IMG/VR virus record: IMGVR_UViG_3300021431_003088
Source: a virus
Taxonomy: Duplodnaviria; Heunggongvirae; Uroviricota; Caudoviricetes
Direction: 5' to 3' (one strand)
Length of the DNA stretch: 64,000 nt
The notes beneath the pieces were generated by a model. It saw only the letters and a program-made list of their open reading frames with translations. It was not told the origin of the DNA and searched no databases. The position numbers and the translations under genes were made by a program. Below are positions 4,762 through 51,640 of this stretch, piece after piece (position 1 is the stretch's first letter; the number at the start of each line of letters is the position of its first letter).

Positions 4762-4765
4762 ATAT

Positions 4766-35879: not shown

Positions 35880-36356
35880 TTATTTAGTCGCCTCTAAAAA
35901 TATTGCTTCTCCAAAATTTCGAGACATAATACTAATTGCCTGTTCTAAATACTTATCTCCTCCCGAAGAATAGATATAATCCTTTAAGATGTGAAAATTA
36001 ATATCGTTATTCCAAAGCGAGAAGCAAGTGCTTAACACACAGGCATCTGCATCTGCACCCATAACATCTATATTTTTATTAGACAAAAGCTCTTTAATTG
36101 TGCCACTTCTTATGTCGTAGTGGGCGTTCTTTTCTATGATGTAATCAGCCTTAAAGTCTAGTTCTTCTGCTTTTTCACAATCCTTGTATCCAAGTTTTCT
36201 CACGAAAATAGAATCGGGGTTGTTTACGAACCTAGTGGCTATTATTTTTGAGTAATTATCTCTGTTTTTCTCTATAAAATTTAGTAGTTTGGTATAATAT
36301 GGTTCTACCTTGAATGTTGGTTGTAAATCCACTACTAACAATGTTTTTTCTGGCAT
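35880..36356 (-). CDS. isochorismatase-family hydrolase (nicotinamidase PncA-like); start trimmed to MPEKTLLVVDLQ
   Basis: LLVVDLQPTF N-terminal motif and GADADACV catalytic-Cys region; RBS AAGGAGAA before ATG at 36356. Confidence 0.5.
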   Translation of the reverse strand: MPEKTLLVVDLQPTFKVEPYYTKLLNFIEKNRDNYSKIIATRFVNNPDSIFVRKLGYKDCEKAEELDFKADYIIEKNAHYDIRSGTIKELLSNKNIDVMGADADACVLSTCFSLWNNDINFHILKDYIYSSGGDKYLEQAISIMSRNFGEAIFLEATK

Positions 36357-36393
36357 ATTATTTTCTCCTTTGTTTCTCTTGCTTATTTTCTTA

Positions 36394-36876
36394 TCAAACC
36401 AGAAAATCGTTTTCGTTATAGGTAACGCATTCGGCGTATTCGGATATTTCTTCAAATTGCTTATAATGCTTGGCCAGTATTTTTCTGCCCTCATTAAGCG
36501 GTATAAATTCCACGATATTGATTTTATATAAGAGTAGTGCTGCTTTTATAAAACATATTTGTTTATCGCAATTTTCATAGTAATTTTTGTTAAAATACAC
36601 CGTGTTAAAATAATTATCCTTATTGGTTAACTTTATATTATAGTTTGAATCATTAAGGTCTACGTCTTTGGATGAAATAGCAAGAAAGACTATATGTGGT
36701 TCATATAACTTATTGTTATATTTTATTAAATCTTTTTTAGAATCATATCTAGCTAAGAACATAAAACCGTATGTATCCTGGCCATATATAATTTTGTTAT
36801 CTGACCTACATATTGGAATTTCTGAAAAGGGCTTACTGCTTTTCTCTTTTAAATTCCAACTTTTTATTTCTTTCAT
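36394..36876 (-). CDS. hypothetical protein
   Basis: ORF track. Confidence 0.45.
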   Translation of the reverse strand: MKEIKSWNLKEKSSKPFSEIPICRSDNKIIYGQDTYGFMFLARYDSKKDLIKYNNKLYEPHIVFLAISSKDVDLNDSNYNIKLTNKDNYFNTVYFNKNYYENCDKQICFIKAALLLYKINIVEFIPLNEGRKILAKHYKQFEEISEYAECVTYNENDFLV

Positions 36877-36886
36877 AAAGCCCCCT

Positions 36887-37123
36887 TTAACTATTTATCA
36901 TCAAAACTGTTAATATTCCCAGCACCAATACCAAAACAACAAAAGTTGATGTAAACGCTAACACAGAATATGGCTTGTACTTATCTCTAAAAAGCGACTC
37001 TCTATTAGCTTTTTGGTAATTATCAATATCTGGTATATCTTCATCTAATATTTTATCTATGTCCTCATTGAGTTGTTTTCCCTCTTCTTCCACAGCTTTT
37101 CTTACGTTATCTTCGTATGTCAT
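36887..37123 (-). CDS. small protein with C-terminal TM
   Basis: ORF track. Confidence 0.4.
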   Translation of the reverse strand: MTYEDNVRKAVEEEGKQLNEDIDKILDEDIPDIDNYQKANRESLFRDKYKPYSVLAFTSTFVVLVLVLGILTVLMINS

Positions 37124-37403
37124 ATTTACTCCCTTTTACCGATACAAACATCTGCTTTTCGTCCTTAGTGTCCTTATTTTTGAAGAATGGTCTTATTCTT
37201 TTTCGTTTTAGTAGCGGCTTTAAATAAAAGAAATAACAGGCATCAGAATTTTTGTGTATTAGACACGAAAACTCTCGTAGTTCGTGAAAAGTTCTTGGCT
37301 TTTTGCAAAATTCTTCTATATGTTCTGATACATATTGTGAATACATATATAAGAGGGCTATTATCGCTATAAAAAGCCCTATAAACATTGCTACTTCTTT
37401 CAT
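37107..37403 (-). CDS. small membrane protein
   Basis: ORF track. Confidence 0.4.
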   Translation of the reverse strand: MKEVAMFIGLFIAIIALLYMYSQYVSEHIEEFCKKPRTFHELREFSCLIHKNSDACYFFYLKPLLKRKRIRPFFKNKDTKDEKQMFVSVKGSKYDIRR

Positions 37404-37601
37404 TTAGCGCACCTTCGTGTATTTAATGGAAATATTTTCTGCATCCTTATAAAGAGTTTTATACCTCTTTATCTCCTTTTCAGCCATTCTTCTCAGATAT
37501 AGCCTCGCTTGTGTTTTATCCTTAGACCAAGTATCTCTTTTAGTGTTGATATAGGTCTTCTTTGATGTTTGCATAGTAATTATGTATTTTTTCAAAATCA
37601 T
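37404..37601 (-). CDS. hypothetical small basic protein
   Basis: ORF track. Confidence 0.4.
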   Translation of the reverse strand: MILKKYIITMQTSKKTYINTKRDTWSKDKTQARLYLRRMAEKEIKRYKTLYKDAENISIKYTKVR

Positions 37602-37816
37602 TTTAAGTTCTCCAGATTATTCTTATTTAGAAGAGCCATAAAGGTAGGAAAGTTTTCCAGCTCTTTATACAAGTCCTCTTCTGTTTGGAGCTTTTTGTTC
37701 CTAAAGCCTGTATGAAACACCTTTACACCATTTTTGTTATATATAGTCATACTTGATGCTCCATAAAGTTTTCCGCTGTAACCGTTTTCGTGTGTACATC
37801 TTATTTCTTTACTCAT
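37598..37816 (-). CDS. hypothetical small protein
   Basis: ORF track. Confidence 0.4.
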   Translation of the reverse strand: MSKEIRCTHENGYSGKLYGASSMTIYNKNGVKVFHTGFRNKKLQTEEDLYKELENFPTFMALLNKNNLENLK

Positions 37817-38060
37817 TTTTTAATCCTTCTATTATTGTTTGTAAATTATCTAAAATTTTTTCTAAATCGTTATAGGCATCAACAAACAGGTCAATATCTT
37901 TTACTTTACTTTTACTCACAAGCTCGTCTGCCATTCGTCTAATCTCTCCACTTCTTTTTGTGAGGCATCTATCGTACTGCGACAGGGTTTTAAGCATATC
38001 CTTTTTATTGGCGTTGTTTGTTTTTTCTATTCTGCTTTCTATATAATCTCTATTTAACAA
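37809..38060 (-). CDS. hypothetical small protein
   Basis: ORF track. Confidence 0.4.
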   Translation of the reverse strand: MLNRDYIESRIEKTNNANKKDMLKTLSQYDRCLTKRSGEIRRMADELVSKSKVKDIDLFVDAYNDLEKILDNLQTIIEGLKNE

Positions 38061-38270
38061 GTTACCACCTACTTAATTATCAGGTCTGTTTTCACCATTA
38101 CATAGAGGTTTCCGTCAGTATCCTTTGCCTTTACAACATTATCTCTTTCGCTTAAGATTAGATATTCTTTGTTACTATATATGTTTAATGCCTTAATATT
38201 TATTTCTTCTTTCTTCTTTCTTCCCATTTGTATTCCTCTTATAGAATATTTTTAGCGAACATTTCCTGTC

Positions 38271-39206
38271 TTAAAATCTATAATATCCGTCTACCAATTC
38301 TTTTGTTTTTCTGTAACCATCACAAATAAGGTAGTCTTCTTCTGCTACTTCTAGCGTGATAGGACAATCAAGCTTCATATTTTCGTATAGGTCTAAATAT
38401 TCATATAGTGTGTTTGCACTATCTTCTGTAAAAGGCATACCGTGATTACCTTTTCCATAGCCATTGCCAATGGTATCTGACAAATGAATTAGCTTTAGAT
38501 AAGGCTTGTTCTTCTTAAAGTAGTTTTCTATGGTAAAGTCGCTTTTGTCTATATATTCTTCATAGTTACTAGACAAAAGTGTTGCTATCTTTTCACTTAT
38601 TGTTGCGTGACAGGTATCAAGTACCGTGCCTATTCTTTCTGTATGTAGTTGCTCTCTTAATGCCTTTACTATCTCTACATTGTCAAAGCCCCAGTTGTTA
38701 TTTAGATGTAAATACTCGTTTTGTTTATTTACTCTAAGTGGCGATACATTCTCTAGTCCAAATTCAATGCAAGGATACTTAAATAGCATACAACCTATGC
38801 CGTTAAGGACTCTTTTCCAGCCATCGCTCAACATTTTTAGGTTCTCTTTATGTTCTTCTGAATGTACTACTATTAATATGCTTTTGTTTTGCGATTTACC
38901 TATAGTATTTGCTAAATAACATACCTGATCTAAAAGTTTAAAGTTGAAACTATCACATAGTTGTTCTAAATTAATATCTGCTACACCTTTGTAAGAGAAA
39001 AGTGGTGCGTGAACGACACAAATATTATGGTTTAGTAGTGTTTGCAGATTCATTACCTCTTCTACATAGTAATAGCTTCCAAGTTCGTTATTTTTGAGAA
39101 GCTCACACATAAGCTGGATTTCTATACCATCACAACCTATCTTTTCTTTTATAGCAATATTATTTTCCTCGGCAATAGCTTTTGCGTATATTTGTGGTTT
39201 ACTCAT
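38271..39206 (-). CDS. xylose-isomerase-like TIM-barrel protein (AP endonuclease family 2 / Nfo-like)
   Basis: LDTCHA motif and HAPL/LENV-like segments; weak assignment. Confidence 0.45.
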   Translation of the reverse strand: MSKPQIYAKAIAEENNIAIKEKIGCDGIEIQLMCELLKNNELGSYYYVEEVMNLQTLLNHNICVVHAPLFSYKGVADINLEQLCDSFNFKLLDQVCYLANTIGKSQNKSILIVVHSEEHKENLKMLSDGWKRVLNGIGCMLFKYPCIEFGLENVSPLRVNKQNEYLHLNNNWGFDNVEIVKALREQLHTERIGTVLDTCHATISEKIATLLSSNYEEYIDKSDFTIENYFKKNKPYLKLIHLSDTIGNGYGKGNHGMPFTEDSANTLYEYLDLYENMKLDCPITLEVAEEDYLICDGYRKTKELVDGYYRF

Positions 39207-39381
39207 TCGTTTTATTCCTCAAAGGCAATTGATAATTATTAACTTCTGAAAACTTATCGCAGGCTCTATCAGTAGGCTCTACTATACATCCATCTAGCAT
39301 ACATTCGTAGTACACCATGTTTCTTCCTGCGTGTCTTACTGCGCATTTGCCACAGTTCTTACAGCATCTTTCACTACTCAT
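39199..39381 (-). CDS. Cys-rich small protein
   Basis: ORF track; overlaps neighbours by a few nt. Confidence 0.4.
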   Translation of the reverse strand: MSSERCCKNCGKCAVRHAGRNMVYYECMLDGCIVEPTDRACDKFSEVNNYQLPLRNKTNE

Positions 39382-39382
39382 A

Positions 39383-39829
39383 TTACATACCTTCCTTTAT
39401 TAAAAATTCGATTGTTTCTTTCGCAATTCTATATTCGTTTGCTTTTTCTCCTAGTCTATCTGCTATATTTCTAAGTCTTTCTTCATAGCCGACTTCTTTT
39501 CCAGCATCCTCTCCACTAGACTCTACGGATAAGTCTGCTGACCAAAGTAGAAGCAATTCCTCTGGTATTTTTGTTTTTCCAGTAATCTGCATATATTCTT
39601 TTGGACTATAGCCATGAAAACCTATAAATTCACTCATAGTTGAGTCTGGAAAAAGCATTGCTCCTCTTGCTTCGTGTTCTTCCTTGCCTTCGATATAGCC
39701 TATATCATGATTTAGACCTAGCATATAGCACTCTTCTTTTGTTAGGAGCTTACAGTTAAACTTGTCGTAGTTTTTATACATATATTCTGCTACGCCTATC
39801 ATATGTTCTAATCTATCTTTTTGTATCAA
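39383..39829 (-). CDS. HD-domain phosphohydrolase-like protein
   Basis: H..NHDIGY motif; track start is TTG, in-frame ATG at 39805. Confidence 0.45.
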   Translation of the reverse strand: MIQKDRLEHMIGVAEYMYKNYDKFNCKLLTKEECYMLGLNHDIGYIEGKEEHEARGAMLFPDSTMSEFIGFHGYSPKEYMQITGKTKIPEELLLLWSADLSVESSGEDAGKEVGYEERLRNIADRLGEKANEYRIAKETIEFLIKEGM

Positions 39830-40030
39830 TGCTTCTTCTTCTTTTCTAGTTTTTCTAATCTAACATTGGTAACACTTTGTTCTACTTTCATTTCATCGAG
39901 TTCGGCCTTCATGTCGATTATTTCTCGTCTTAATTGCCTCATTTCGTTTCTCATTTTCTTATACTTTAAATCTTGTTGATCCATTTTAAACCTCTATATT
40001 CCCTAAACTTTTAGAAAATAAATTTTTCTA

Positions 40031-40059
40031 CATTATTTATATAAGTGTAGTGCGAAGTT
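40031..40059 (-). promoter_or_regulatory. conserved phage promoter motif, extended subclass
   Basis: tatataagtgtagtgcgaagtt. Confidence 0.45.
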
Positions 40060-40084
40060 TCAAGAATTAACAAAATACTGGTAA

Positions 40085-40386
40085 GAACCTTGTATTTATG
40101 CGGATTTAGAGTAAATGAAAAACCCTTCTTTGAAAAATAAATAATATTTTTTAAGAAATTTTTACGGATTTCAGTGAATTATGACAAGTAATAAGTAGGG
40201 AGGAAAATTTTTTTCAGAAAAAAGTACGGAAATAGGTATGCAGTAGGACATATCTTTAATGAAGGAGAAAAAACTTTGGTGGAAACATCATAAATTTTGC
40301 AAGTAATAATTAGAAAGGCGGTGATCAAGTTGAGGGTATGAAATAAATAGTAGCAACAAGTAATAATAAGTAGGAGGATAAGAAAT
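40085..40386 (+). repeat. degenerate ~65-100-bp tandem repeats in the leader of gene 40387 (acgga(t/a)tt.. + caagtaataa.aagtagg.agga x3) with mini-ORFs
   Basis: seen in sequence. Confidence 0.4.
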
Positions 40387-40977
40387 ATGGATAAGGATAT
40401 TAGAACAGAGATGGAAAATATTTACAGAAGAATTAAAGCAAAAGAGGAAGAAGAAAGAATGGAAATTGACAGCATAAACGAAAGTTTGAATAAATTACTA
40501 ACAGACGAAGAACATTACCCATTAAGTAAAGGCTACGCTGAAGTGTTTAAACCATTAGTAGATAAGGTTAATAATGGCGAATTTGGTAGGAGTGGCACGG
40601 AAAAGAAACACATAATAGAATTTGTATTAGATTTTATTGAATTTGCGATAGATAAGATAGATTATAGTCTTGAGGATAGCCTAGTTAGGGGCTATGTGGC
40701 TACTGATTTACAAAAGGCTAACAAGAACCTATCTACACGAATAGAACTCATTCTAGAAGCGTATAGAGGCTTTGTAGACAGCCCTAGAGGTAGCGAACTT
40801 GATATAGGTGCTTTCTTTACATACCAAGAAGATTTCTACAAGGGTTATATGGAACTAGATGAAGAATATTATGATGAATATAACAGGTTTATATTACTTT
40901 CTTATTTTGAGAATAGGTTGCTTTGTCACTATCAGAAGAGTGTGTTTTTTGAAGTACACGAATTAATATTTCAATAA
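40387..40977 (+). CDS. hypothetical protein (plus-strand island)
   Basis: ORF track; RBS GTAGGAGGATAAG upstream. Confidence 0.5.
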   Translation: MDKDIRTEMENIYRRIKAKEEEERMEIDSINESLNKLLTDEEHYPLSKGYAEVFKPLVDKVNNGEFGRSGTEKKHIIEFVLDFIEFAIDKIDYSLEDSLVRGYVATDLQKANKNLSTRIELILEAYRGFVDSPRGSELDIGAFFTYQEDFYKGYMELDEEYYDEYNRFILLSYFENRLLCHYQKSVFFEVHELIFQ

Positions 40978-41019
40978 TGACACGAAGCCTAGAAAAACAT
41001 TTAGCAGCAACAATGTTTT

Positions 41020-41065
41020 GGTACTAACCGTATAGAAAAAACAAGACATCTATGCTATAATATAT
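41020..41065 (+). promoter_or_regulatory. sigma70-like promoter with extended -10 TGCTATAAT (41053-41061)
   Basis: followed by ~180-nt leader with hairpins (aaacatt..aatgttt; ccctagta..tactaggg). Confidence 0.45.
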
Positions 41066-41247
41066 ATGTAATTATAGGAGTTTTGGGAACGATAGTAAGT
41101 AATACATCATATATTGTTGTGTATATTTGGTGATATAATTATTTACTATAATTATATAGGGATTGCCCTAGTAACTTATTTATACTAGGGTAGGCGAATG
41201 CTTTCTCTAGTTTTATATAGATAAAATATAAAGAAAGGAGAGAGCGT

Positions 41248-41439
41248 ATGGAGGTGATTGAAGTGCGTAATAAAATCAAACCGTACAAAGGAAGATGGTG
41301 TCCTCGTTCAATCGCAAACGAGATAAATGATATGTTTTATAATGCGCAAAAACCAGATAGGACAGCTCTTGAAAAAGAATCTCAAGAATACCTAAACTAT
41401 CTTAGAGCAAAGAAATTATCTCGCACCGCAAGTAATTAA
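41248..41439 (+). CDS. small protein, candidate antitoxin-like partner of the downstream GNAT gene
   Basis: 63 aa; stop/start separated by 1 nt from 41441. Confidence 0.45.
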   Translation: MEVIEVRNKIKPYKGRWCPRSIANEINDMFYNAQKPDRTALEKESQEYLNYLRAKKLSRTASN

Positions 41440-41440
41440 T

Positions 41441-41998
41441 ATGAGAATACTTGAAGATGAATTTTTCTACTTAAAACACCTTGAAGAAATAGACGATTTG
41501 TCTGAATTTTCATCAAAGAAGGGATACGGATTAGAATATTATTTAAAAAATAATGCTCTTGGCGAAGAAAAAGCCAATATTTCCAGAACATACCTTGTTT
41601 TAAGTAAGGAAACAGAAAAAATTGTTGCTTATTTTACTTTAAGAACAGGTTTAATTACAATAAGCAGAGGATTTTTAAGAGGATTTGACACTTACACAGG
41701 TATCGAATTATCAAATTTTGCAGTAAATGATAATTATGATGAAAAAATCGAAAATATACCTAAGTTCGGTAGCCATATCTTCTTCCAGTTTGTATTGCCA
41801 CTCGTAAGAAAAATTGGTGAACTTGTAGGAGCATATTGTCTTTATATTTATGCTCTGCCATCCAATAAATTAATGGCACATTATCAAACAATGGGGTTTA
41901 CTATGACCTCGAAGCGTGTTGAAAGATATATTTATAGACACGTAAAGCCTTATTATGATAAAGGCTGCAGATTTATGTATCAAATTATTGATTCATAA
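41441..41998 (+). CDS. GNAT-family N-acetyltransferase (toxin-like architecture)
   Basis: R..G..G/A-like acetyl-CoA motif RKIGELVGAY, C-terminal YALP..KLMAHYQTMGF; tight coupling to upstream small ORF. Confidence 0.5.
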   Translation: MRILEDEFFYLKHLEEIDDLSEFSSKKGYGLEYYLKNNALGEEKANISRTYLVLSKETEKIVAYFTLRTGLITISRGFLRGFDTYTGIELSNFAVNDNYDEKIENIPKFGSHIFFQFVLPLVRKIGELVGAYCLYIYALPSNKLMAHYQTMGFTMTSKRVERYIYRHVKPYYDKGCRFMYQIIDS

Positions 41999-42007
41999 AG
42001 TATTCTA

Positions 42008-42036
42008 GCGTCACAGAATGTGGCGCTTTTTTTTAT
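42008..42036 (+). terminator. rho-independent terminator gcgtcacagaatgtggcgc + T8
   Basis: seen in sequence. Confidence 0.55.
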
Positions 42037-42065
42037 TGCGTGATCATATTTTGAGAACAGGTTAC

Positions 42066-42112
42066 ATTAAAAAAGAGGGAAGATCACACCATTGTGTAAT
42101 TCATCCCTCTTT
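42066..42112. terminator. bidirectional compound hairpin agagggaag..cttccctct flanked by A/T runs
   Basis: seen in sequence. Confidence 0.45.
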
Positions 42113-42280
42113 TATGGCTGATTTTAGTGTTGTCTGCCAACGGTTCCACATTTTTAATGCGAAATACTGTACGGATTATTCAGTGTTGTCCGCCAACGGG
42201 TATTTTAAATACCAATAGTACAGATTAAGATGTCAGCCACATCATAGGGAATGTCCCACTGGGGATATTCCAATTAAGAG
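42070..42280 (-). ncRNA. candidate ~200-nt non-coding RNA transcribed from the duplicated sigma-gene promoter copy
   Basis: no ORF >8 codons downstream of promoter copy; 19-bp direct repeats AGTGTTGTCYGCCAACGG at 42128 and 42181; ends at hairpin terminator. Confidence 0.35.
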
Positions 42281-42334
42281 AGCAAACATTTGCTCTACCA
42301 ATAGCTACTTATATATATAAGTTCAAAATCGTAG
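42279..42334 (-). promoter_or_regulatory. second copy of the sigma-gene promoter/operator (palindrome AGAGCAAATGTTTGCTCT)
   Basis: 52/54 identical to 26321-26376. Confidence 0.55.
42308..42331 (-). promoter_or_regulatory. promoter motif copy overlapping the duplicated region
   Basis: cttatatatataagttcaaaatcg. Confidence 0.4.
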
Positions 42335-42341
42335 TATATTC

Positions 42342-42692
42342 TTAGTCTTTTATTTTCTGATTCACCTTATCAAACACTGCCTTAAAGTAAACACCCTCGT
42401 AGTCTTTTTGTCTCTCTTCTTCTGTCTTTTCGCCAAAATGCTCTGGCGATATTCTTAGGGATAGAATACTCTCTAGCACTCTACCAGTTCTATTAGCCTC
42501 AATAGCGTTATAGACAACCTCATCAAAGTTATCGAGGATAACCTTTTCGCATTTATCCTTTGGTCCTTTACCATAGATAAAACCTGATTCATCTTCTCCT
42601 ATTCTAATTTCGCCTTTGAGCGCATGTAAGATTTCCTCTCTATCATATAATTTTGCTTGCTGAAAGCTAATTCCGCTTCCATATTTACTCAT
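42342..42692 (-). CDS. hypothetical protein, candidate partner (toxin-like?) of Panacea-domain protein
   Basis: 8-nt overlap with upstream gene. Confidence 0.45.
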   Translation of the reverse strand: MSKYGSGISFQQAKLYDREEILHALKGEIRIGEDESGFIYGKGPKDKCEKVILDNFDEVVYNAIEANRTGRVLESILSLRISPEHFGEKTEEERQKDYEGVYFKAVFDKVNQKIKD

Positions 42693-43188
42693 ATAAGTCC
42701 TCCTTAAAATACTCTCTTATTGCATCTATTGTAATTTCATTATTCATGTTTTGCTGATATGCGTTTTTCCACGTATCTTGGTTATGCGTTAATGTAACAA
42801 GTGATGTGGCGGAATAATTAGAAAAAGTATCTATTACTTCTCTTATTCTTTTTTTGTCTTTATCAGATATATTGTTATCATCAAAATACTCACGTTCTGA
42901 ATCCCATATATTATCATAATTTATTCTCATAATAGATTTCATTGTAGGGATATTTGTACTTCCAAATCTTCTATATTCGTAATATGCTCTAGGAACAACA
43001 GGTCCAAAATTCCAAGCCTCTATTTTGTCACCAAAACACGGTCTTTTTCTTTGTGTATTGATTAAAAAATATGCTTGAATGAAATACAATATTTTTTGGA
43101 GTTTTAGATTTGAAATGCCATACCCCTTATTGTTACTATATTCTATAGCATATCTACAAACTTCTAATACATCATATGGTTCTTTCAT
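42685..43188 (-). CDS. Panacea-domain (DUF4065 / SocA / GepA-like) protein
   Basis: NLKLQKILYFIQAYF...IEAWNFGPVVPRAYYEY matches the KLQKLLYYAQ...AW.YGPV.P..Y core. Confidence 0.6.
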   Translation of the reverse strand: MKEPYDVLEVCRYAIEYSNNKGYGISNLKLQKILYFIQAYFLINTQRKRPCFGDKIEAWNFGPVVPRAYYEYRRFGSTNIPTMKSIMRINYDNIWDSEREYFDDNNISDKDKKRIREVIDTFSNYSATSLVTLTHNQDTWKNAYQQNMNNEITIDAIREYFKEDLYE

Positions 43189-43223
43189 GATCTTTTGTCC
43201 TTTTTTTCTTTAAAAACCTTATA

Positions 43224-43454
43224 TTAATAAGCCAATCTCCCGATACTTAATTTCTTACATTTTGTCGTAAGAAGTGTCAATTTTCTTCCGCAAAATGGAC
43301 AATAATTGCATTGCAAATAATACGAAGCTCCATCATCTCCATAAAATGTTAAAATGTTTAATTCTTGAATAAAAACTTCTGCTTTATTATTTGAACCAAA
43401 TGATGTAAAATCTATAAGACCTTTTTCACAATAATTACATTTTTTATTATTCAT
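43224..43454 (-). CDS. zinc-ribbon small protein
   Basis: CNYCEKG...CNYCPFCGRKL. Confidence 0.4.
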   Translation of the reverse strand: MNNKKCNYCEKGLIDFTSFGSNNKAEVFIQELNILTFYGDDGASYYLQCNYCPFCGRKLTLLTTKCKKLSIGRLAY

Positions 43455-43489
43455 TGTATCAACTCCTGAGAGGTATCAACTATAAACGA

Positions 43490-43678
43490 CTAATTTAATT
43501 TCTCTCCACATAGAGGACAAAAATTAATTGCTTTTAAATATTCCCTACTTCTTTTTCTGTCATTTATTATCAATGTATTGATTTTTTTATTTATATGTAA
43601 TTCGTAATTTACTTTAACATTATCCATCATATCTTCTTGTATTAAAGTTTTTTCATTTTCACAATATTCGCATCCCAT
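43490..43678 (-). CDS. zinc-ribbon small protein (paralogue-like of 43224..43454)
   Basis: CEYCENE...CPLCGEKL. Confidence 0.4.
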   Translation of the reverse strand: MGCEYCENEKTLIQEDMMDNVKVNYELHINKKINTLIINDRKRSREYLKAINFCPLCGEKLN

Positions 43679-43735
43679 ATTGAACCTCGTCTAACTATTT
43701 ATCAAATTCATTTATCAGGGCTTCTTATTCTATCT

Positions 43736-44053
43736 TTACAAACACATTATGTCTTTTAACTTTTTTTTCATATCCTTTTGTCCGTCTGCATATCCTTTTC
43801 TATATAGATATGTTTTTTCAAAACCAGTGTTAGTTGACGATGGTGTGTATTTCTGTATGCAATTTGGTATGATTACATTATCTCGTGATATATTAAATAT
43901 ATCGCATATACCCGAAAACACATACGCTGGCATTGACTGAGTGCCATTTTCATAGGAAAGGTATGTCGTATAGGGTACACCTAATTCTTCTGCCAAGTCC
44001 TTTTTTGATAAACCGTAATCTTTTCTTAATGCATTTATTGTTTTCTTAATCAA
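43736..44053 (-). CDS. XRE-family helix-turn-helix transcriptional regulator
   Basis: LRKDYGLSKKDLAEELGVPYTTYLSYENG. Confidence 0.65.
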   Translation of the reverse strand: MIKKTINALRKDYGLSKKDLAEELGVPYTTYLSYENGTQSMPAYVFSGICDIFNISRDNVIIPNCIQKYTPSSTNTGFEKTYLYRKGYADGQKDMKKKLKDIMCL

Positions 44054-44094
44054 TATCCATTTCCTCTAAAATTTCAACTTCTTTACTGCGTTTT

Positions 44095-44421
44095 TTACTT
44101 ATCTTCTACCTCGTGCCAGTCGTATTCAGCTTCGATTTCGAAGATATCGCTGTATATATCAGCATCTTCATCATCACATTCATTTATAGTTTGTGCAGCT
44201 GTGCCTTTTTCTATTACCTCTATTAACCAAATTCCTTTATGGTTTTTTCCATAACTTGCTTTAATGATTGTGCCATCACTAAAACCTATCCTTACTACGC
44301 TATCGAAACAACCTATCTCGTCTGCTGGATAAGGTGCGCCCTCTATTATTACTAGATCATCTGAACAACCGTAAACTTTTGTCTTTTCCATAGTTTTTCT
44401 CCTACGATTTATTGCTTGCAA
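44095..44421 (-). CDS. hypothetical acidic protein
   Basis: ORF track. Confidence 0.45.
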   Translation of the reverse strand: MQAINRRRKTMEKTKVYGCSDDLVIIEGAPYPADEIGCFDSVVRIGFSDGTIIKASYGKNHKGIWLIEVIEKGTAAQTINECDDEDADIYSDIFEIEAEYDWHEVEDK

Positions 44422-44435
44422 TTAGTCTTCTTTGA

Positions 44436-44756
44436 TTATTGTAAGTTTTCTTCAACCTCAATAAAGCAATTAATATATCTATATTTCTTGCCATCGTAAA
44501 TAAAATTAATGTAACCACCACTACTATCAGTAATAACATTTGTAACACCTTTGTACTCGGCCATCTTTTCTCCATTTGCGGTGTATACAGTAATGTCTTT
44601 TGTTTGTGTTTTAGGCGGCGTATCAAAGCCAGTTACAAATACAAAAATTATTGCTATGCATAACATTACAAATATAGTGATAGCTATAATGCTTTTGATT
44701 TTTTCGATTTTCTCAAACTTTTTTGCGTCCATAAAAATCCCCTTATTGATTATCAA
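44436..44756 (-). CDS. membrane-anchored hypothetical protein
   Basis: ORF track; N-terminal TM. Confidence 0.45.
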   Translation of the reverse strand: MIINKGIFMDAKKFEKIEKIKSIIAITIFVMLCIAIIFVFVTGFDTPPKTQTKDITVYTANGEKMAEYKGVTNVITDSSGGYINFIYDGKKYRYINCFIEVEENLQ

Positions 44757-44776
44757 TTTTGGCTCTATGTTGATAT

Positions 44777-45208
44777 TTACTTTTCCTCTAAAATTAGACC
44801 TGTCAATTCATTTGCTCTGATACGATAGGCTTTTTGTGCTTCATATTCCGTGTATTCCTCTCCACATGAAAGGCAGTGAGAAAGAGGAAATTCAAGCAGG
44901 TCTTTGAGCGTCTTGATTTCATTCTTATGCTGTTCAACCAGAGCTGCAACAAATTTTTCGTGAGCTTCATGCGCATCCTTTTCTGTTGCGAATATACAAT
45001 TTTCTGTAGCCCCAAATGTTCCTTTGATATCTATAGAATGTAATTTATAGACACCTTGACCTGTACTTGATTCATGTTCCACATAATCAATAACTTCACA
45101 TTTCTCCGCTATGTTATATGGGCTATTAACATAAACTATTTGTTTGTTCTTAAATTTTTGCATATCGTTTATATCTCCTATAACCAATCGGAAGAACCCG
45201 GTTTGCAT
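44777..45208 (-). CDS. hypothetical protein
   Basis: ORF track. Confidence 0.45.
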   Translation of the reverse strand: MQTGFFRLVIGDINDMQKFKNKQIVYVNSPYNIAEKCEVIDYVEHESSTGQGVYKLHSIDIKGTFGATENCIFATEKDAHEAHEKFVAALVEQHKNEIKTLKDLLEFPLSHCLSCGEEYTEYEAQKAYRIRANELTGLILEEK

Positions 45209-45232
45209 CGTGTTTTGGGTTTATTTTGTTTT

Positions 45233-46291
45233 TTAATATTTAAAATCCATATCAGCGTAGTTTTCTTCTACTTGATTCTTTTGTACTTCCTGTGTGGCAT
45301 GAACTTCCTTTGTAACCTTAGAACTGTCTGGCTTAATACAAGGATCATTATCAACCTTTACAGTCTTCTTTTTGGTATTTATAGGTTGCTGATTTTTAAA
45401 ATCAAATGCTTCTGCCATTACTGACATATTTCCAATATTATCACCTACAGAGTCCATAATTGAACTTGGAATAAATACCTTGGTAGAGTTACCATTAGCA
45501 ATATCCTTCATAGCCTCAATACTCTTCATACGAAGGATTTGGTTAGTAGGCTGCGCTTGATTAAGTCGCTCTAAACCTTGAGCCTCTGCTTCATATACAA
45601 GCTCTATTGACCTTGCTTTGCCTTCAGCAAGAGCAATTTGTGCATCTCTTTCTGCTTGTGCAGCCAAAACCTTAGCCTCTTTATCACCTTCAGCACGTTT
45701 AACTGCTGACTCTTTATGTGCTTCTGCTTCGAGAACAGCTTGTCTTCTTTCTCGCTCTGCCCTCATTTGCTTACTCATTACATCTAAGATGTCTTGTGGT
45801 GGCTGAATAGTCTTAACCTCTACTCTGTTTACCTTAATACCCCATTTATCTGTAGCTGCATCTAATTCTGCTTCAAGTTGTGCGTTAATTTGATCACGAC
45901 CAGAAAGTGTTGTATCTAAATCCATTGTACCAATAATATTACGAAGTGTTGTAGCACAAAGGTTTTCTACTCCTGCGAGTGGATTTTCAACACCATAAGT
46001 AAATAATTTTGCATCTGTTACTGTTAGATATACAACAGAGTCAATATGCATTGCCACATTATCCTGTGTGATAACTGATTGTGGTGGAAAATCAAGCACT
46101 TGCTCTTTTAATGATACCTTACTTATAACTGCATCAATAAAAGGTATTTTAAGATGCACACCAGCATCCCACTCTGCTTTGAATTTTCCTAATCTTTCTA
46201 CAATGTACTTTTGTGTTTGTGGTACAATTCTTAGCGACATAAGTATTAACACTATTAAAATTGCTCCAATAATTCCTAATGCTATAAACAT
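45233..46291 (-). CDS. SPFH/band-7 domain protein (stomatin/HflK-like) with N-terminal TM and coiled-coil
   Basis: N-terminal TM then IVPQTQKYIVERLGKF; AEAEAxxxAxA repeats; locally higher GC. Confidence 0.8.
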   Translation of the reverse strand: MFIALGIIGAILIVLILMSLRIVPQTQKYIVERLGKFKAEWDAGVHLKIPFIDAVISKVSLKEQVLDFPPQSVITQDNVAMHIDSVVYLTVTDAKLFTYGVENPLAGVENLCATTLRNIIGTMDLDTTLSGRDQINAQLEAELDAATDKWGIKVNRVEVKTIQPPQDILDVMSKQMRAERERRQAVLEAEAHKESAVKRAEGDKEAKVLAAQAERDAQIALAEGKARSIELVYEAEAQGLERLNQAQPTNQILRMKSIEAMKDIANGNSTKVFIPSSIMDSVGDNIGNMSVMAEAFDFKNQQPINTKKKTVKVDNDPCIKPDSSKVTKEVHATQEVQKNQVEENYADMDFKY

Positions 46292-46430
46292 AATTTTAAT
46301 CTCCTCTTAAAAAATTATTCATTTTGCTGCTTTTCTTACTCACCATAGGGGGGCTGTCCTCTAATTAATCTCATAACTAATTCTCCTTTGCGTCTACTCT
46401 TCCGGTATTGGCTCAATCTCTAACTCTTTC

Positions 46431-46895
46431 TTACGCCTCGTCTACTTCTATTAGCGTTGGTACAGTATCTATGATTTTTTTAATGTTTTCTGCAATTACA
46501 TTATTAGGTTTATCTAAGTCAAGTAACTTTTCAATCTTATCAATATCTTTTAATCTTCCGTGTCCTTTTGGTAGCTGAACACCTCTTCTAACACATTCCG
46601 CAAGACAGGTATAATCTTGTGGGTGTGTTAAGTAGTATTTTGGTATTTTAACAACTACTTCAACCTGTTCTGACATAGTTATTCCCCCGCTTTCTGCCCA
46701 ATCTGGTACATTAGCAGTAGCAACAGCACCACCACCAATATCGTTGCAAACAGTAATTTCTTGAATGCCTAATTCACACCAAGTATGTCCCTTAGATTTA
46801 TCAGCTTCTACTGCGTCTACTCTTACTTCAACATTAAATTCATTATCCATGTTTTTACAATCTAAAAGCTTAATAATTACTTCCCTTACTGTCAT
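46431..46895 (-). CDS. hypothetical protein with LPKGHGRLKDID motif
   Basis: motif shared with 12001..12312. Confidence 0.45.
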   Translation of the reverse strand: MTVREVIIKLLDCKNMDNEFNVEVRVDAVEADKSKGHTWCELGIQEITVCNDIGGGAVATANVPDWAESGGITMSEQVEVVVKIPKYYLTHPQDYTCLAECVRRGVQLPKGHGRLKDIDKIEKLLDLDKPNNVIAENIKKIIDTVPTLIEVDEA

Positions 46896-46898
46896 TTA

Positions 46899-47222
46899 TT
46901 ACTCCCTTTCTGCTTTTAGCCCGTCAATGAATTTTTCTATAAATTCAAGGCTTTTCTTCTTTCCCAAGCCTGTGTTTCTGATGTGATTTATATAGCCTTT
47001 TATCTTGTCAAGAACAGGCTCTTGCTCTAATGCTTTGATAATAGTTTCAGTAACATCATCTTGCATTGTATGGTCGCAATTAGGATAGTTTATACATTCC
47101 TCGCAAACCTCCGAATGATAATCGCTATATGCTTTCAAACAGTGCAATGCTATTTTTCTTTCTTCTCCTGTCATACTTATCTCCTTACTTTCTGCTCCAT
47201 TGTGGAATACCTTAAAAGACAA
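46899..47222 (-). CDS. hypothetical protein
   Basis: ORF track. Confidence 0.45.
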   Translation of the reverse strand: MSFKVFHNGAESKEISMTGEERKIALHCLKAYSDYHSEVCEECINYPNCDHTMQDDVTETIIKALEQEPVLDKIKGYINHIRNTGLGKKKSLEFIEKFIDGLKAERE

Positions 47223-47363
47223 GGCATTCCCTAAAACAAAGCGCTAATACCTAGTGCTAGTAAGCATGTTGTTGTTGCAAGTGATAATGGAAGTATTATT
47301 CCCCAGGCATTTATTTTCATAACTAATTACCTCTTGGAATACCCTAAAGGGCATTCCCTACCT

Positions 47364-47846
47364 TTAACTCTTTACTTTTCCTTCGTCTTTTAGTTCGTTA
47401 ATTATCTCTTCTCTAATGCTTTCCTTGTATGCTTCGTTATATTCCTTAGTAGCATCAGACTGATACGGCATACAATAGATTATTATGTCGTTTTCTAAAA
47501 AGCCGTACTTAGCTTTTCCTTGATATACGATAGGCTTATCGCTTGTCGTCCAAGACATATACACATCATTATCTTTCGTGTTGGCATTCTTTATTTCCTT
47601 ATCCTCAAGGTCTACATAGTAGAATGTACCGTCTGCGTCTTTGCTTATTTCATATACGCCATTCTTCCAATTCTTCGTGTCTACGGTGTAGTTTTGATTG
47701 AATAAGAATGTTAATATTAAAAAGAATACTATTTCTGCTATTGCACCGATAAATCTAACCCAATTTATATGTGTTAGAAAGGCTATTAATTCTGTTATCG
47801 CAAAGATTGCGACAAACCCTATAATTAAAAATATGTATTCGTTCAT
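47364..47846 (-). CDS. membrane protein (2 N-terminal TM)
   Basis: ORF track. Confidence 0.45.
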   Translation of the reverse strand: MNEYIFLIIGFVAIFAITELIAFLTHINWVRFIGAIAEIVFFLILTFLFNQNYTVDTKNWKNGVYEISKDADGTFYYVDLEDKEIKNANTKDNDVYMSWTTSDKPIVYQGKAKYGFLENDIIIYCMPYQSDATKEYNEAYKESIREEIINELKDEGKVKS

Positions 47847-47956
47847 AACTTTCCTTTAAGCACGATTACTAGCAAACTTTGCTATCTCTGCGTATACCTC
47901 GCGCAATCCTTTCTCGTAAAAATATTCATTAGTATTTTATTTGCAAAAGCTATATA

Positions 47957-48253
47957 TTATGTTGATTCTTTTATTAAGCCATCATAATGTTTACCGCCTC
48001 CAGAAGTGCCTAATATTGTACAGTTTGCATTGGCGCAATTTAAACCTAATAATGATGATTTGCTTTTTGTTTTGTTGCAATAATTAATAAGGCACTCTAT
48101 ATATTCTTCCTTTGTTACATTGGGGTTTTCTATTTTGATTATTTCATCAAAATCATTACTAGCATTTTGTTTCTTCGCCTCGTATTCTTTTTCACTCAGA
48201 TTGGGGCATAGCTTTTTAACGACCATCTGGTAATATGTGATTGCTTCTTTCAT
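47957..48253 (-). CDS. hypothetical protein
   Basis: ORF track. Confidence 0.4.
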   Translation of the reverse strand: MKEAITYYQMVVKKLCPNLSEKEYEAKKQNASNDFDEIIKIENPNVTKEEYIECLINYCNKTKSKSSLLGLNCANANCTILGTSGGGKHYDGLIKEST

Positions 48254-51352: not shown

Positions 51353-51362
51353 CGATTGGAAT

Positions 51363-51545: not shown

Positions 51546-51640
51546 CTTCTCCTACGAACTTGTTAAAAGTCTTGTGAAAAAGGGGTTTGCCTAGTGCTTT
51601 CTTTGTAAAGGCTTGGTATTGCACAAGTGGCGACCTCTAC

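What the first reader, a model, noticed from the sequence alone, without database searches (positions are those of the whole stretch)
40000..44100. Accessory/variable island with regulatory RNA, TA-like pairs, Zn-ribbons and an HTH regulator
Within about 4 kb the otherwise uniform minus-strand architecture is broken by divergent transcription, tandem leader repeats and two plus-strand genes with host-like promoters. It also contains a GNAT pair, a duplicated sigma-type promoter/operator driving a non-coding region, a Panacea-domain pair, two paralogous zinc-ribbon proteins and an XRE-family regulator. This looks like a hotspot for anti-defence/defence or lysogeny-like regulation and is the best candidate in the window for an undescribed multi-component system.
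Basis: inference. Interest (0 to 1): 0.6.

Follow-up and report, generated by a model that had tools for sequence, protein, structure and literature searches.

The report
Mosaic accessory island with GNAT toxin-antitoxin
This stretch of a large gut-microbe mobile element is a patchwork of independently swappable accessory genes rather than one system, and its best-defined part is a self-contained cassette with a TacT/AtaT-like acetyltransferase toxin gene and a previously undescribed small partner gene.

Summary

- **Variability.** Contigs of about 90-95% identical relatives show the parts vary independently. The whole plus-strand block (about 39985-42350) is missing in one contig and present in others. 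PanA, the HTH gene and the HD gene are each skipped or replaced.
- **Plus-strand block.** It carries an orphan 196-aa gene and a bicistronic pair.
  - The pair is a 63-aa protein followed by a 185-aa GNAT. All 22 Foldseek rows listed down to rank 34 for the GNAT are tRNA-acetylating TA toxins (TacT, AtaT, KacT, GmvT).
  - The small partner lies directly upstream in 84 of 84 related loci from several phyla. It matches no DUF1778/RHH or any other family.
  - Only this operon is covered by contigs of two RNA libraries.
- **Panacea "pair".** The 116-aa neighbour belongs to a family found without PanA. PanA relatives carry a different partner.
- **Non-coding stretch.** The stretch behind the duplicated promoter-like element is strongly structured (z -5.3). 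No transcript or relative was found for it.

Verdict: an ordinary mosaic accessory hotspot containing a new variant of GNAT toxin-antitoxin module. The scan had already noted the promoter duplication (e1-1878899).

The parts
40033..40056 (-). Copy of the element's repeated promoter-like motif, just upstream of the 52-aa gene (39826-39984). It forms the left edge of the variable block.
   Evidence: Five copies in the window, all on the minus strand, each upstream of a minus-strand gene (810, 17834, 35724, 40033; 51640 with 6 mismatches). Promoter function is inferred.
40185..40370 (+). Three CAAGTAATAA(N)(W)AG repeats in the ORF-free leader of the 196-aa gene. Copies 1 and 3 duplicate the ribosome-binding region.
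   Evidence: 3 matches, 0.61 expected. The leader fold is not better than shuffles (z +0.38).
40387..40977 (+). 196-aa protein of no known family (g196).
   Evidence: No Pfam, PHROG, PADLOC, NCBIfam or PDB match. Only 2 homologous clusters, at 93% and 64% identity. The Atlas search was uninformative.
41033..41139 (+). Two sigma-70-type extended -10 promoter-like sites in front of the TA-like operon (TGcTATAAT within 41033-41061; TGaTATAAT at 41131-41139).
   Evidence: (10 of 12 with TG) and the sequence. The second site aligns with TGATATAAT/TAATATGGT in related loci.
41163..41247 (+). Conserved leader with two elements. Hairpin or inverted repeat at 41163-41193. A second hairpin at 41198-41247 pairs the Shine-Dalgarno sequence with an upstream CUUUCUCU.
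   Evidence: Fold z -4.22, 0 of 200 shuffles. In 5 aligned loci, 9 of 24 predicted pairs have both-sided changes, all in the first hairpin. DNA similarity to L030-32 and L034 upstream regions.
41248..41439 (+). 63-aa small partner (g63), the candidate antitoxin. One base separates it from the next gene.
   Evidence: An HMM of the family hits directly upstream of the GNAT gene in 84 of 84 loci. No Pfam match in 31 members scanned and no antitoxin chain in the PDB.
41441..41998 (+). 185-aa GNAT-fold protein (GNAT185), the closest structural relative of tRNA-acetylating TA toxins.
   Evidence: phrog_1758 at 1.3e-22. The family profile hits AtaT2, TacT, GmvT and KacT chains at 3.5e-10 to 3e-4. AF2 pLDDT 90. 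All 22 Foldseek rows down to rank 34 are GNAT TA toxins. Tyr148 is invariant.
42007..42027 (+). Intrinsic terminator-like hairpin plus T-run ending the GNAT operon.
42070..42300 (-). About 230 nt of non-coding, strongly structured sequence between the duplicated promoter-like element and a hairpin plus U-run (42078-42115). It contains two 17-nt repeats (42127-42143, 42183-42199).
   Evidence: MFE -76.1 kcal/mol, z -5.27, 0 of 200 shuffles. No ORF with a Shine-Dalgarno sequence. A relative has 1-, 3- and 4-nt indels between the repeats. No Rfam match. No RNA contig covers it.
42276..42344 (-). Duplicate of the promoter-like element and leader hairpin of the sigma-like gene (26307-26375). It forms the right edge of the variable block and overlaps the stop codon of g116.
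   Evidence: 94% over 69 nt. The block joint lies at 42363.
42342..42692 (-). 116-aa protein (g116) of an unnamed family. It has a conserved N-terminal 80 residues, and family members commonly end in an acidic tail. It is not a conserved PanA partner.
   Evidence: 117 representative proteins at E<=1e-3. No Pfam match. AF2 pLDDT 93.5 with no convincing fold match. Found without PanA.
42685..43188 (-). 167-aa stand-alone Panacea (DUF4065/SocA-like) protein (PanA167), here without the partner type its relatives carry.
   Evidence: PF13274 at 1.9e-21 with the full profile matched. phrog_1281 at 2.8e-42. 23 of 29 related viral loci have a 260-360-aa downstream partner of one family. It is replaced in a relative.
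43224..43678 (-). Two paralogous CxxC...CxxC zinc-ribbon proteins (76 aa at 43224-43454; 62 aa at 43490-43678).
43736..44053 (-). 105-aa XRE-type helix-turn-helix protein (HTH105).
   Evidence: HTH_3 at 2.3e-8. A contig of a relative skips the gene.

Best explanation
The region is a mosaic accessory hotspot of a roughly 119-kb mobile element of gut or rumen bacteria. In such a hotspot, single genes and small cassettes are gained, lost and replaced independently.

**The cassette.** The strand-switched part (about 39985-42350) is one such cassette, present in some close relatives and absent in others. It is bounded by copies of the element's own promoter-like sequences. On the left is a copy of the repeated private motif, which re-starts the downstream minus-strand genes. 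On the right is a copy of the sigma-gene promoter-like element with its leader hairpin.

**Its cargo.** The cargo is an orphan 196-aa gene and a self-contained type II toxin-antitoxin-like operon.
- The 185-aa GNAT enzyme most likely acetylates charged tRNAs and blocks translation, as TacT, AtaT and KacT do.
- The 63-aa protein made just before it most likely binds and neutralises it.
- The operon has its own extended -10 promoter, a conserved leader with an inverted repeat and a Shine-Dalgarno-sequestering hairpin, and its own terminator.
- Its likely role is to stabilise the element (addiction) or to exclude competitors.

**The neighbours.** The stand-alone PanA, the two zinc ribbons, the XRE protein and g116 are separate accessory genes. 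PanA is most likely an orphan antitoxin-type gene. The 230-nt structured stretch is most likely a transcribed leader-to-terminator unit created by the promoter duplication. It acts mainly as an insulator between convergent transcription units. A trans-acting RNA role is possible but unsupported.

**Shown:** the anatomy, the variability, the fold, and conservation of the gene pair and its leader.

**Inferred:** toxicity, neutralisation, the tRNA target, promoter activity and biological role.
For: **Independent variation**
- Read laying: run X3 has a contig joining 39977 to 42363, skipping 2385 nt with 25 other letters between.
- The same run has contigs covering 40217-41141 and 41651-42489, so both forms exist.
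- Other joints run 42692 to 43281 (PanA replaced by 255 letters, g116 kept), 43734 to 44094 and 39383 to 39930.
- No co-occurrence elsewhere: 0 of 29 PanA loci carry other island genes, and 0 of 84 GNAT loci carry PanA, g116, g196 or the zinc ribbons.

**Block edges**
- 42276-42344 copies 26307-26375.
- The motif at 40033-40056 has 5 copies in the window.

**GNAT**
- The family profile (45 sequences) hits AtaT2 (7f37), TacT1 (7ak8), TacT (5fvj, 7f36), GmvT (9ilr) and KacT (5zgn, 5xun) at E 3.5e-10 to 3e-4.
- The AF2 model has pLDDT 90.
- All 22 Foldseek rows listed down to rank 34 are GNAT TA toxins (E 4.7e-10 to 1e-7, TM by target 0.66-0.83). The first other protein is at rank 36.
- Tyr148 is invariant in 45 sequences.

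**Pair**
- The gene gap is 1 nt.
- The partner HMM hits directly upstream in 84 of 84 loci. Thirty of those 84 partners were in the HMM.
- By record titles the loci come from Lachnospiraceae, Treponema, Fibrobacter, Kiritimatiellae, Lentisphaerae and others.
- Several genomes hold 2-3 copies.

**Leader:**

**RNA libraries:** the only contigs of two RNA runs from two studies that lie on 36000-48000 cover 41211-41896 and 41492-41892, with 0 differences.

**Literature (passages read):** PMC9177977 reports GNAT toxin homologues outside the DUF1778 clade. Those homologues are preceded by short ORFs without DNA-binding domains, described there as possibly 'yet unidentified antitoxins'.
Against:
- GNAT185 matches no Pfam GNAT model at E<=0.01, no NCBIfam model and no PADLOC model.
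- Its acetyl-CoA loop is divergent. Where TacT has G-K-G-L-G, the family has I-P-x-L-G, with one conserved Gly.
- The partner has no recognisable DNA-binding or antitoxin domain, so autoregulation is unexplained.
- PMC9177977 also allows that such outlying GNATs have other physiological functions.
- RNA contigs cannot prove transcription, because DNA can be present in RNA libraries (caveat).
- The direction of the indel (insertion or deletion) is not resolved.
- For the non-coding stretch, the consensus scan finds no promoter. No relatives exist beyond chance-level motif hits: 17 single matches in IMG/VR with no extended similarity.
- Whether the element is a plasmid or a phage is not settled from this window.
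Confidence: 0.6

Rival explanations
1. The 185-aa GNAT is not a toxin. It is an ordinary acetyltransferase (for a small molecule or a protein), and the 63-aa partner is an adaptor, regulator or substrate rather than an antitoxin.
For: No Pfam, NCBIfam or PADLOC toxin model is matched. The acetyl-CoA loop is divergent. The partner lacks any antitoxin-type domain. PMC9177977 (passage read) leaves open 'different physiological functions' for GNATs outside the DUF1778 clade.
Against: All 22 Foldseek rows listed down to rank 34, and all 8 profile hits in the PDB at E<=3.3e-4, are TA toxins rather than metabolic GNATs. The tight two-gene module with its own promoter and terminator occurs in multiple copies per genome, with patchy spread over phyla and mobile elements. 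That pattern is typical of TA modules.
Confidence: 0.27
2. PanA167 and g116 form a genuine PanAT toxin-antitoxin pair in which g116 is a new toxin.
For: The genes overlap by 8 nt with PanA upstream. This is the order seen in PanA relatives. Panacea antitoxins pair with many unrelated toxins (PMC8832971, PMC10440598; passages read).
Against: A roughly 91% identical relative keeps g116 while PanA is replaced by 255 other letters. None of the 8 loci holding a complete or nearly complete g116-family gene shows PanA upstream; 9 loci were fetched. Three of those genes lie between a holin-like and a lysozyme-like gene (named by eye from the printed sequences), and the 58%-identical relative has a different upstream gene. 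In 23 of 29 PanA loci the partner is instead a 260-360-aa protein with hydrophobic C-terminal segments (read by eye). g116 is soluble, and family members commonly end in an acidic tail. Its fold matches no known toxin.
Confidence: 0.1
3. All parts (GNAT pair, RNA, PanA, zinc ribbons, HTH) act together as one undescribed defence or anti-defence system.
For: The parts lie close together within 4 kb. Such regions of mobile elements are known to collect defence and anti-defence genes (PMC11541004; passages read).
Against: The parts are gained and lost separately in close relatives. They never co-occur in 29 PanA loci, 84 GNAT loci or the 9 g116-family loci fetched. The parts lie on both strands with terminators between them.
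Confidence: 0.05
4. The 230-nt structured stretch (42070-42300, minus strand) is a real trans-acting small RNA of the element. One possibility is a protein-sequestering RNA whose two short hairpins present the repeated motif.
For: Promoter-like element, stable fold (z -5.27, 0 of 200 shuffles), terminator-like hairpin with U-run, and no coding potential. The stretch is kept in a relative, whose listed indels (truncated table) fall between the two repeats.
Against: No RNA contig covers it. No Rfam family is matched. No relatives were found in IMG/VR beyond chance-level motif hits. The consensus scan calls no promoter there. A leader hairpin and a terminator alone account for much of the fold energy. 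The stretch could simply be the by-product of a duplicated promoter running into a terminator.
Confidence: 0.3

Closest known systems
GNAT/DUF1778 type II toxin-antitoxin systems (TacAT, AtaRT, KacAT, ItaRT, GmvAT)
   Same: The toxin-like gene has the same fold and is their nearest structural relative. An invariant Tyr sits in the ...HYxxxGF segment. A small upstream gene is tightly coupled to the GNAT gene. The module has its own promoter and terminator and is carried on mobile elements.
   Different: The upstream partner is about 60 aa and matches neither DUF1778/RHH nor any solved antitoxin. The GNAT is about 20 residues longer, has a divergent acetyl-CoA loop and matches no Pfam GNAT model. 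The leader carries a Shine-Dalgarno-sequestering hairpin. The family is spread in Lachnospiraceae, Treponema and Fibrobacter, whereas PMC9177977 (passage read) says GNAT toxin homologues are almost absent from Firmicutes.
DUF4065(Panacea)-GNAT pairs such as VcaA-VcaT (PMC9177977) and PanAT systems (PMC8832971, PMC10440598)
   Same: A Panacea-domain protein and a GNAT toxin-like gene lie within 1 kb of each other. PanA167 is a stand-alone Panacea protein like the directly neutralising PanAs.
   Different: Here they are on opposite strands, each with another neighbour, and they do not co-occur elsewhere (0 of 84 GNAT loci and 0 of 29 PanA loci). PanA167 lacks the downstream partner type that 23 of 29 relatives have. 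Binding could not be tested.
Anti-defence and accessory islands of conjugative-plasmid leading regions (PMC11541004)
   Same: The genes are mostly small, of unknown function, and nearly all in one direction. Orphan DNA methyltransferases are present (14022-14939 and 49069-49827), together with a complete TA-like pair and an orphan antitoxin-type gene. The paper (passages read) lists these same categories.
   Different: No origin of transfer or relaxase lies in the window, so the position relative to oriT is untested. The plasmid identity rests on an earlier unchecked note (e1-5439654). No known anti-defence gene was identified here.
PeSL promoter-stem-loop cassettes flanking variable genes in T4-type phages
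   Same: A short promoter-like element with a stem-loop is repeated within the element. One copy sits exactly at the edge of an indel-polymorphic gene block.
   Different: Only two copies were found in 64 kb. The other block edge carries a different repeated motif. A role in recombination is inferred, not shown.

Membership tests
GNAT toxins of type II TA systems (TacT/AtaT/KacT) | GNAT fold most similar to the tRNA-acetylating toxins | tested here: met
   AF2 pLDDT 90. All 22 Foldseek rows down to rank 34 are these toxins, E from 4.7e-10. The profile hits them at down to 3.5e-10.
GNAT toxins of type II TA systems (TacT/AtaT/KacT) | Catalytic tyrosine (the residue changed in the AtaT Y144F and KacT Y145F crystal forms) | tested here: inconclusive
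   Tyr148 is invariant in 45 family members. In the HMM alignment it faces a Phe of chain 7ak8_A in the ...FF-I-H-H-G-F segment. That this Phe is the mutated catalytic Tyr is my recollection and comes from no call.
GNAT toxins of type II TA systems (TacT/AtaT/KacT) | Acetyl-CoA pyrophosphate-binding loop (Q/R-x-x-G-x-G/A; motif recalled) | tested here: inconclusive
   The family has I-P-x-L-G-x-Y where TacT1 has G-K-G-L-G-A. Only Gly110 is invariant.
GNAT toxins of type II TA systems (TacT/AtaT/KacT) | DUF1778/RHH antitoxin gene next to the toxin gene | tested here: not met
   0 of 31 partner sequences match DUF1778 or any RHH model at E<=1. The partner profile hits no antitoxin chain in the PDB.
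GNAT toxins of type II TA systems (TacT/AtaT/KacT) | Conserved two-gene module with the small gene upstream | tested here: met
   84 of 84 loci. The gap or overlap between the genes is 1 to 7 nt in the window, L030 and L033.
GNAT toxins of type II TA systems (TacT/AtaT/KacT) | Growth arrest by acetylation of aminoacyl-tRNA, relieved by the partner | not testable with these tools
   This needs expression and LC/MS.
PanAT (Panacea antitoxin with cognate toxin) | Panacea (PF13274/DUF4065) domain | tested here: met
   E 1.9e-21, profile positions 1-113 of 113.
PanAT (Panacea antitoxin with cognate toxin) | Adjacent partner gene that is conserved together with PanA | tested here: not met
   g116 is absent from 29 PanA loci. 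PanA is absent upstream in the 8 loci that hold a complete or nearly complete g116-family gene. A close relative keeps g116 without PanA.
Type III toxin-antitoxin (ToxIN-like RNA repeats) | Tandem RNA repeats, then a terminator, then a toxin gene on the same strand | tested here: not met
   There are only two 17-nt repeats 56 nt apart. Tandem Repeats Finder reports no array. Downstream on the minus strand lies the end of the convergent GNAT gene, not an ORF.
Leading-region anti-defence island of a conjugative plasmid | Location next to oriT on the strand that enters first | not tested
   No relaxase or oriT lies in the 64-kb window. The whole element is not held.
Leading-region anti-defence island of a conjugative plasmid | Co-directional small genes with orphan methyltransferases, TA genes and orphan antitoxins | tested here: met
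   and this report's TA and PanA results.

The most novel reading that the evidence does not exclude
The 63-aa/185-aa pair founds a new family of GNAT-toxin toxin-antitoxin modules. Its antitoxin is a short protein without an RHH domain, unrelated to DUF1778 or Panacea, and its expression is gated by a Shine-Dalgarno-sequestering leader. The family is widespread in gut and rumen anaerobes, including Firmicutes, where GNAT toxins were reported as nearly absent. Here it rides as a transcribed, presence/absence-polymorphic cassette on a tRNA-rich 119-kb mobile element, beside a new structured small RNA.
Probability: 0.45. Interest if true: 0.55.

Novelty: new variant of a known kind. Interest (0 to 1): 0.4.

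Why it matters
If the pair is a working toxin-antitoxin module, it would have four consequences.
- It would give GNAT toxins a third, unrelated class of antitoxin, after DUF1778 and DUF4065.
- It would fill the gap that PMC9177977 left open: outlying GNATs with short, unrecognised upstream ORFs.
- It would extend tRNA-acetylating toxins to Lachnospiraceae, Treponema and Fibrobacter of animal guts.
- It would offer a case where the same cassette is seen present and absent in close relatives of one mobile element. That makes its effect on element maintenance directly testable.

The rest of the island is ordinary. It shows how such hotspots mislead a reader into seeing one system.

Tried and rejected
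**Searches for relatives that found nothing**
- blastn of 39000-45500 against INPHARED phages: no match.
- megablast of 36000-48000 against PLSDB: no match.
- tblastn of g116 and of GNAT185 against phages: no match.
- tblastn of GNAT185 against plasmids: only two 28.6%-identical hits annotated as GNAT, listed and not followed.
- The 311-aa flank gene, g196 and GNAT185 as single queries in IMG/VR gave no loci.
- The g116 family was not found in IMG/VR by pattern or in 401 genomes of one bacterial family. Four handle genomes were also negative. The single-protein metagenome scan found none.

- The Atlas searches for g116 and g196 were uninformative, with low-confidence Atlas models.

**g116 function**
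- Fold searches in the PDB by Foldseek (best E 0.43), in BFVD (best E 0.2) and by VIA-align wide (best Z 6.4, helical-bundle level) gave no convincing match.
- The HD-domain neighbour does not resemble the HD part of a g116 fusion protein.

**The non-coding stretch**
- Rfam at gathering and E-value thresholds returned only sub-threshold chance rows.
- The 17-nt repeat motif has 17 single hits in IMG/VR. By my own rough estimate from the collection's size and the motif's length, that is about what chance gives. None shows further similarity.
- No contig of the two RNA runs lay on the non-coding stretch or on any other gene of 36000-48000. This is not evidence of silence.

**Ideas considered and dropped**
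- A type III TA reading of the repeats.
- A riboswitch-like role for the g196 leader (z +0.38).
- A CsrA-type GGA-loop sponge: only one of the two repeat loops has GGA, read.

Full report
**Setting**

The window is AT-rich (GC about 0.31-0.42) and almost entirely transcribed on the minus strand. Its annotated content is as follows:
- an array of 21 tRNA genes and a tmRNA gene;
- a type IA topoisomerase, a RecD2-like helicase and a DnaG-like primase;
- two orphan DNA methyltransferases, a YqaJ/RecE-like exonuclease and a sigma-like gene;
- TnpB and IS110 transposases.

No virion gene was seen in the 64 kb. The contig is 119,069 bases long (row P0003). No whole genome is held. An earlier unchecked note of this scan (e1-5439654) calls the element a gut or rumen conjugative plasmid with about a dozen private promoters. 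I can confirm only that a 24-nt promoter-like motif occurs five times in my window, always on the minus strand in front of genes.

**What lies at 40000-44100**

Plus strand:

| Gene | Coordinates | Size |
|---|---|---|
| g196 | 40387-40977 | 196 aa |
| g63 | 41248-41439 | 63 aa |
| GNAT185 | 41441-41998 | 185 aa |

Minus strand:

| Gene | Coordinates | Size |
|---|---|---|
| g116 | 42342-42692 | 116 aa |
| PanA167 | 42685-43188 | 167 aa |
| Zinc ribbon | 43224-43454 | 76 aa |
| Zinc ribbon | 43490-43678 | 62 aa |
| HTH105 | 43736-44053 | 105 aa |

GC skew turns positive only at 40001-42000.

Family assignments:
- PanA167 matches SocA_Panacea (PF13274) at E 1.9e-21 over the full profile.
- HTH105 matches HTH_3 at 2.3e-8.
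- The two zinc ribbons are paralogues (37% identity, E 7e-6), and both match the C-terminal part of phrog_1494.
- GNAT185 matches phrog_1758 'acetyltransferase' at 1.3e-22. It matches no Pfam, NCBIfam or PADLOC model.
- g196, g63 and g116 match nothing in those libraries.

**The island is variable, piece by piece**

No related DNA exists in the phage or plasmid collections. Public runs, however, hold close relatives. I laid contigs of two DNA runs (X3 and X4, mostly 90-99% alike) and two RNA runs on 36000-48000.
- One X3 contig joins 39977 to 42363, skipping 2385 nt with 25 other letters between.
  - Read on the minus strand, these letters end g116 with the same last residues as protein P0001. 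P0001 is the 91%-identical, 112-aa homologue.
  - The letters then run directly into the start of the 52-aa gene.
  - In that relative the whole plus-strand block, the non-coding stretch and both flanking promoter-like copies are therefore absent, and the minus-strand array is uninterrupted.
- Other X3 contigs cover 40217-41141 and 41651-42489, so both forms exist in that run.
- Further joints skip 42692 to 43281 (PanA replaced by 255 other letters, while g116 and the zinc ribbons are kept on the same contig), 43734 to 44094 (HTH105) and 39383 to 39930 (the HD-domain gene).

The island is not conserved core. It also shows that the parts do not travel together.

**Edges of the block**
- The right edge carries 42276-42344. 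This is a reverse-complement copy (94% over 69 nt) of 26307-26375, which lies just upstream of the ribosome-binding site of the sigma-like gene.
- The left edge carries a perfect 24-nt copy of the repeated motif (40033-40056), placed to re-start the downstream minus-strand genes.
- The sigma-70 consensus scan lists neither as a promoter. Their promoter role is inferred from position.
- I cannot tell whether the block was inserted in this lineage or deleted in the other.

**The GNAT pair**

*Fold and relatives of GNAT185*
- GNAT185 has 115 relatives at E<=1e-3, among 162 candidates and counting the window's own protein. Most are 183-195 aa long and unannotated.
- A 45-sequence alignment (A2) used as a profile hits 8 PDB sequences at E<=3.3e-4. 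All are GNAT TA toxins: AtaT2 7f37, TacT1 7ak8, TacT 5fvj and 7f36, GmvT 9ilr, KacT 5zgn and 5xun, and TacT2 7ak7 (names).
- The AF2 model is confident (pLDDT 90, pTM 0.86).
- All 22 Foldseek rows listed down to rank 34 are such toxins (E 4.7e-10 to 1e-7). The first other protein appears at rank 36.
- Tyr148 is invariant. It aligns to the ...F-I-H-H-G-F segment of TacT1.
- The acetyl-CoA loop is divergent.

*The small partner*
- g63 ends one base before GNAT185 starts.
- In viral contigs L030 and L033, homologous small genes of 66 and 63 aa overlap the GNAT gene by 7 and 4 nt.
- tblastn with g63 finds only 7 of 84 loci.
- An HMM built from 31 partners (A5) finds a hit directly upstream of the GNAT gene in 84 of 84 loci. 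Thirty of those partners were in the model.
- The shared motif is I-L-N-T-P-K-P-D-F-x-x-L...E-F-E.
- By record titles the loci come from Lachnospiraceae, Roseburia, Treponema (the majority), Fibrobacter, Kiritimatiellae, Lentisphaerae and others. Several genomes hold two or three copies.
- None of the 31 partners matches DUF1778 or any other Pfam family convincingly. The partner profile hits no antitoxin in the PDB.

*The leader*
- The operon leader is conserved in DNA with the nearest loci.
- It has an extended -10 (TGaTATAAT).
- An inverted repeat or hairpin at 41163-41193 shows compensatory changes. Nine of 24 predicted pairs have both-sided changes among 5 sequences, all in this helix.
- A second hairpin pairs the Shine-Dalgarno sequence. 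The fold of 41140-41260 has z -4.22.

*RNA libraries and literature*
- In two RNA libraries from two studies, the only contigs on the 12-kb stretch cover 41211-41896 and 41492-41892, with no differences. This is a hint of expression and not proof.
- PMC9177977 (passages read) describes three groups:
  - GNAT toxins with DUF1778 antitoxins;
  - a clade with DUF4065 antitoxins (VcaAT);
- The same paper says GNAT toxin homologues are almost absent from Firmicutes. The present family fits the outlying group.

I therefore read the pair as a TA-like module that works like TacAT/AtaRT. It fails the membership test for the DUF1778 family.

**The Panacea gene is not part of a conserved pair**
- 29 IMG/VR loci encode PanA167 relatives at 28-62% identity. 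None carries g116 or any other island gene within 4 kb.
- In 23 of the 29 loci, PanA is followed within -17 to +16 nt by a 260-360-aa protein of one family. This protein has a charged N-terminal part and hydrophobic C-terminal segments, read by eye. Pfam gives only sub-threshold DUF2207_C hits.
- That resembles the membrane PanT toxins of PMC8832971 and PMC10440598 (passages read).
- g116 instead belongs to a family of 117 representative proteins (E<=1e-3; 57 at <=1e-10).
  - The family shares a conserved N-terminal 80 residues, and its members commonly end in an acidic tail.
  - It has no Pfam match.
  - Rare fusions join it to an HD domain and a MazG-like domain.
- Nine metagenome loci with g116-family matches were fetched; 8 hold a complete or nearly complete gene, and none of those shows PanA upstream. 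By eye from the printed sequences, three lie between a holin-like and a lysozyme-like gene and one lies after a YqaJ-like exonuclease. The 58%-identical relative has a different upstream gene.
- Its AF2 model is confident (pLDDT 93.5) but has no convincing structural relative.
- Because g116 occurs without PanA in a close relative, PanA167 is best seen as a separately acquired, orphan antitoxin-type gene.
- PMC11541004 (passages read) reports complete TA systems and orphan antitoxins among the genes enriched in plasmid leading regions. It suggests orphan antitoxins may counter TA defences. That is a possible role here, and it is untested.

**The non-coding stretch**

Read on the minus strand, behind the duplicated element, the order is:
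- the copied leader hairpin;
- a second hairpin;
- a multi-branched domain holding two 17-nt repeats (each predicted as a 4-bp hairpin);
- a strong hairpin with a U-run (42078-42115).

The 253-nt fold has MFE -76.1 kcal/mol, z -5.27, and 0 of 200 shuffles fold as well. No ORF with a ribosome-binding site lies there. A relative carries 1-, 3- and 4-nt indels at 42148-42181, which excludes a conserved reading frame.

Against a functional RNA:
- no Rfam family is matched;
- no RNA contig covers it;
- the repeat motif's 17 hits in IMG/VR are about what I estimate chance would give, and they share nothing else with it.

I rate a genuine trans-acting RNA at about 0.3. Otherwise it is an insulating leader-terminator unit left by the promoter duplication.

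**The g196 leader**

The three repeats are real and clustered. Two of them duplicate the ribosome-binding region without a start codon. The 326-nt leader is no more structured than shuffles. g196 itself has only two homologous clusters in 5.8 billion proteins.

**Verdict**

The interpretation as a variable accessory island is right. The interpretation as one undescribed multi-component system is not supported. The part worth an experiment is the g63/GNAT185 module, a new variant of the GNAT toxin-antitoxin theme with an unrecognised small partner.

Noticed in passing
window 2381-4762, 2875-2965, 51250-51353, 60234-60578: A mobile element carrying 21 tRNA genes in one array and a tmRNA gene (tag ANDEKLALVA). 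Rfam also calls two longer tRNA-like hits (91 and 104 nt) that ARAGORN does not report; they may be intron-containing or atypical.
   Followed up: no
window 810-833, 17834-17857, 35724-35747, 40033-40056, 51640-51663: A promoter-like motif (AAACTTCGCACTACACTTATATA...) repeated five times, always on the minus strand in front of genes.
   Followed up: partly
window 42342-42692; loci L116, L117, L120 (about 650-1170 and 2858-3220): The g116 family has 117 representative clusters and a confident model without a known fold. In three metagenomic phage-like contigs it sits between a holin-like and a lysozyme-like gene (named by eye from the sequences). It is rarely fused to HD or MazG-like domains. 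Its function is unknown.
   Followed up: partly
loci L001-L029 (PanA at about 4001-4470, partner directly downstream): In 23 of 29 viral contigs, a PanA relative is followed by one family of 260-360-aa proteins with hydrophobic C-terminal segments and no Pfam family. This is a likely membrane PanT-type toxin family of phages. L009 has two PanA paralogues in tandem.
   Followed up: partly
window 1009-2157 and 62294-63496: A TnpB/IS605 OrfB-type gene lies next to the tRNA array, and an IS110-family transposase lies near the window end.
   Followed up: no
window 45233-46291: An SPFH/HflK-like (Band 7) membrane-scaffold gene on the mobile element, with 55% and 44% identical relatives in two unannotated human-faecal phage records.
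   Followed up: no
loci L040/L044/L062, L074/L077/L103, L065/L079/L099: Single Treponema genomes hold three separate copies of the small-partner/GNAT module. This multiplicity is typical of toxin-antitoxin families.
   Followed up: no
window 42078-42115 versus loose ends at 42106 in runs X3 and X4: Relatives carry a different sequence at the terminator hairpin. It appears to keep the same loop and a hairpin shape, suggesting the terminator is conserved in structure rather than sequence.
   Followed up: no
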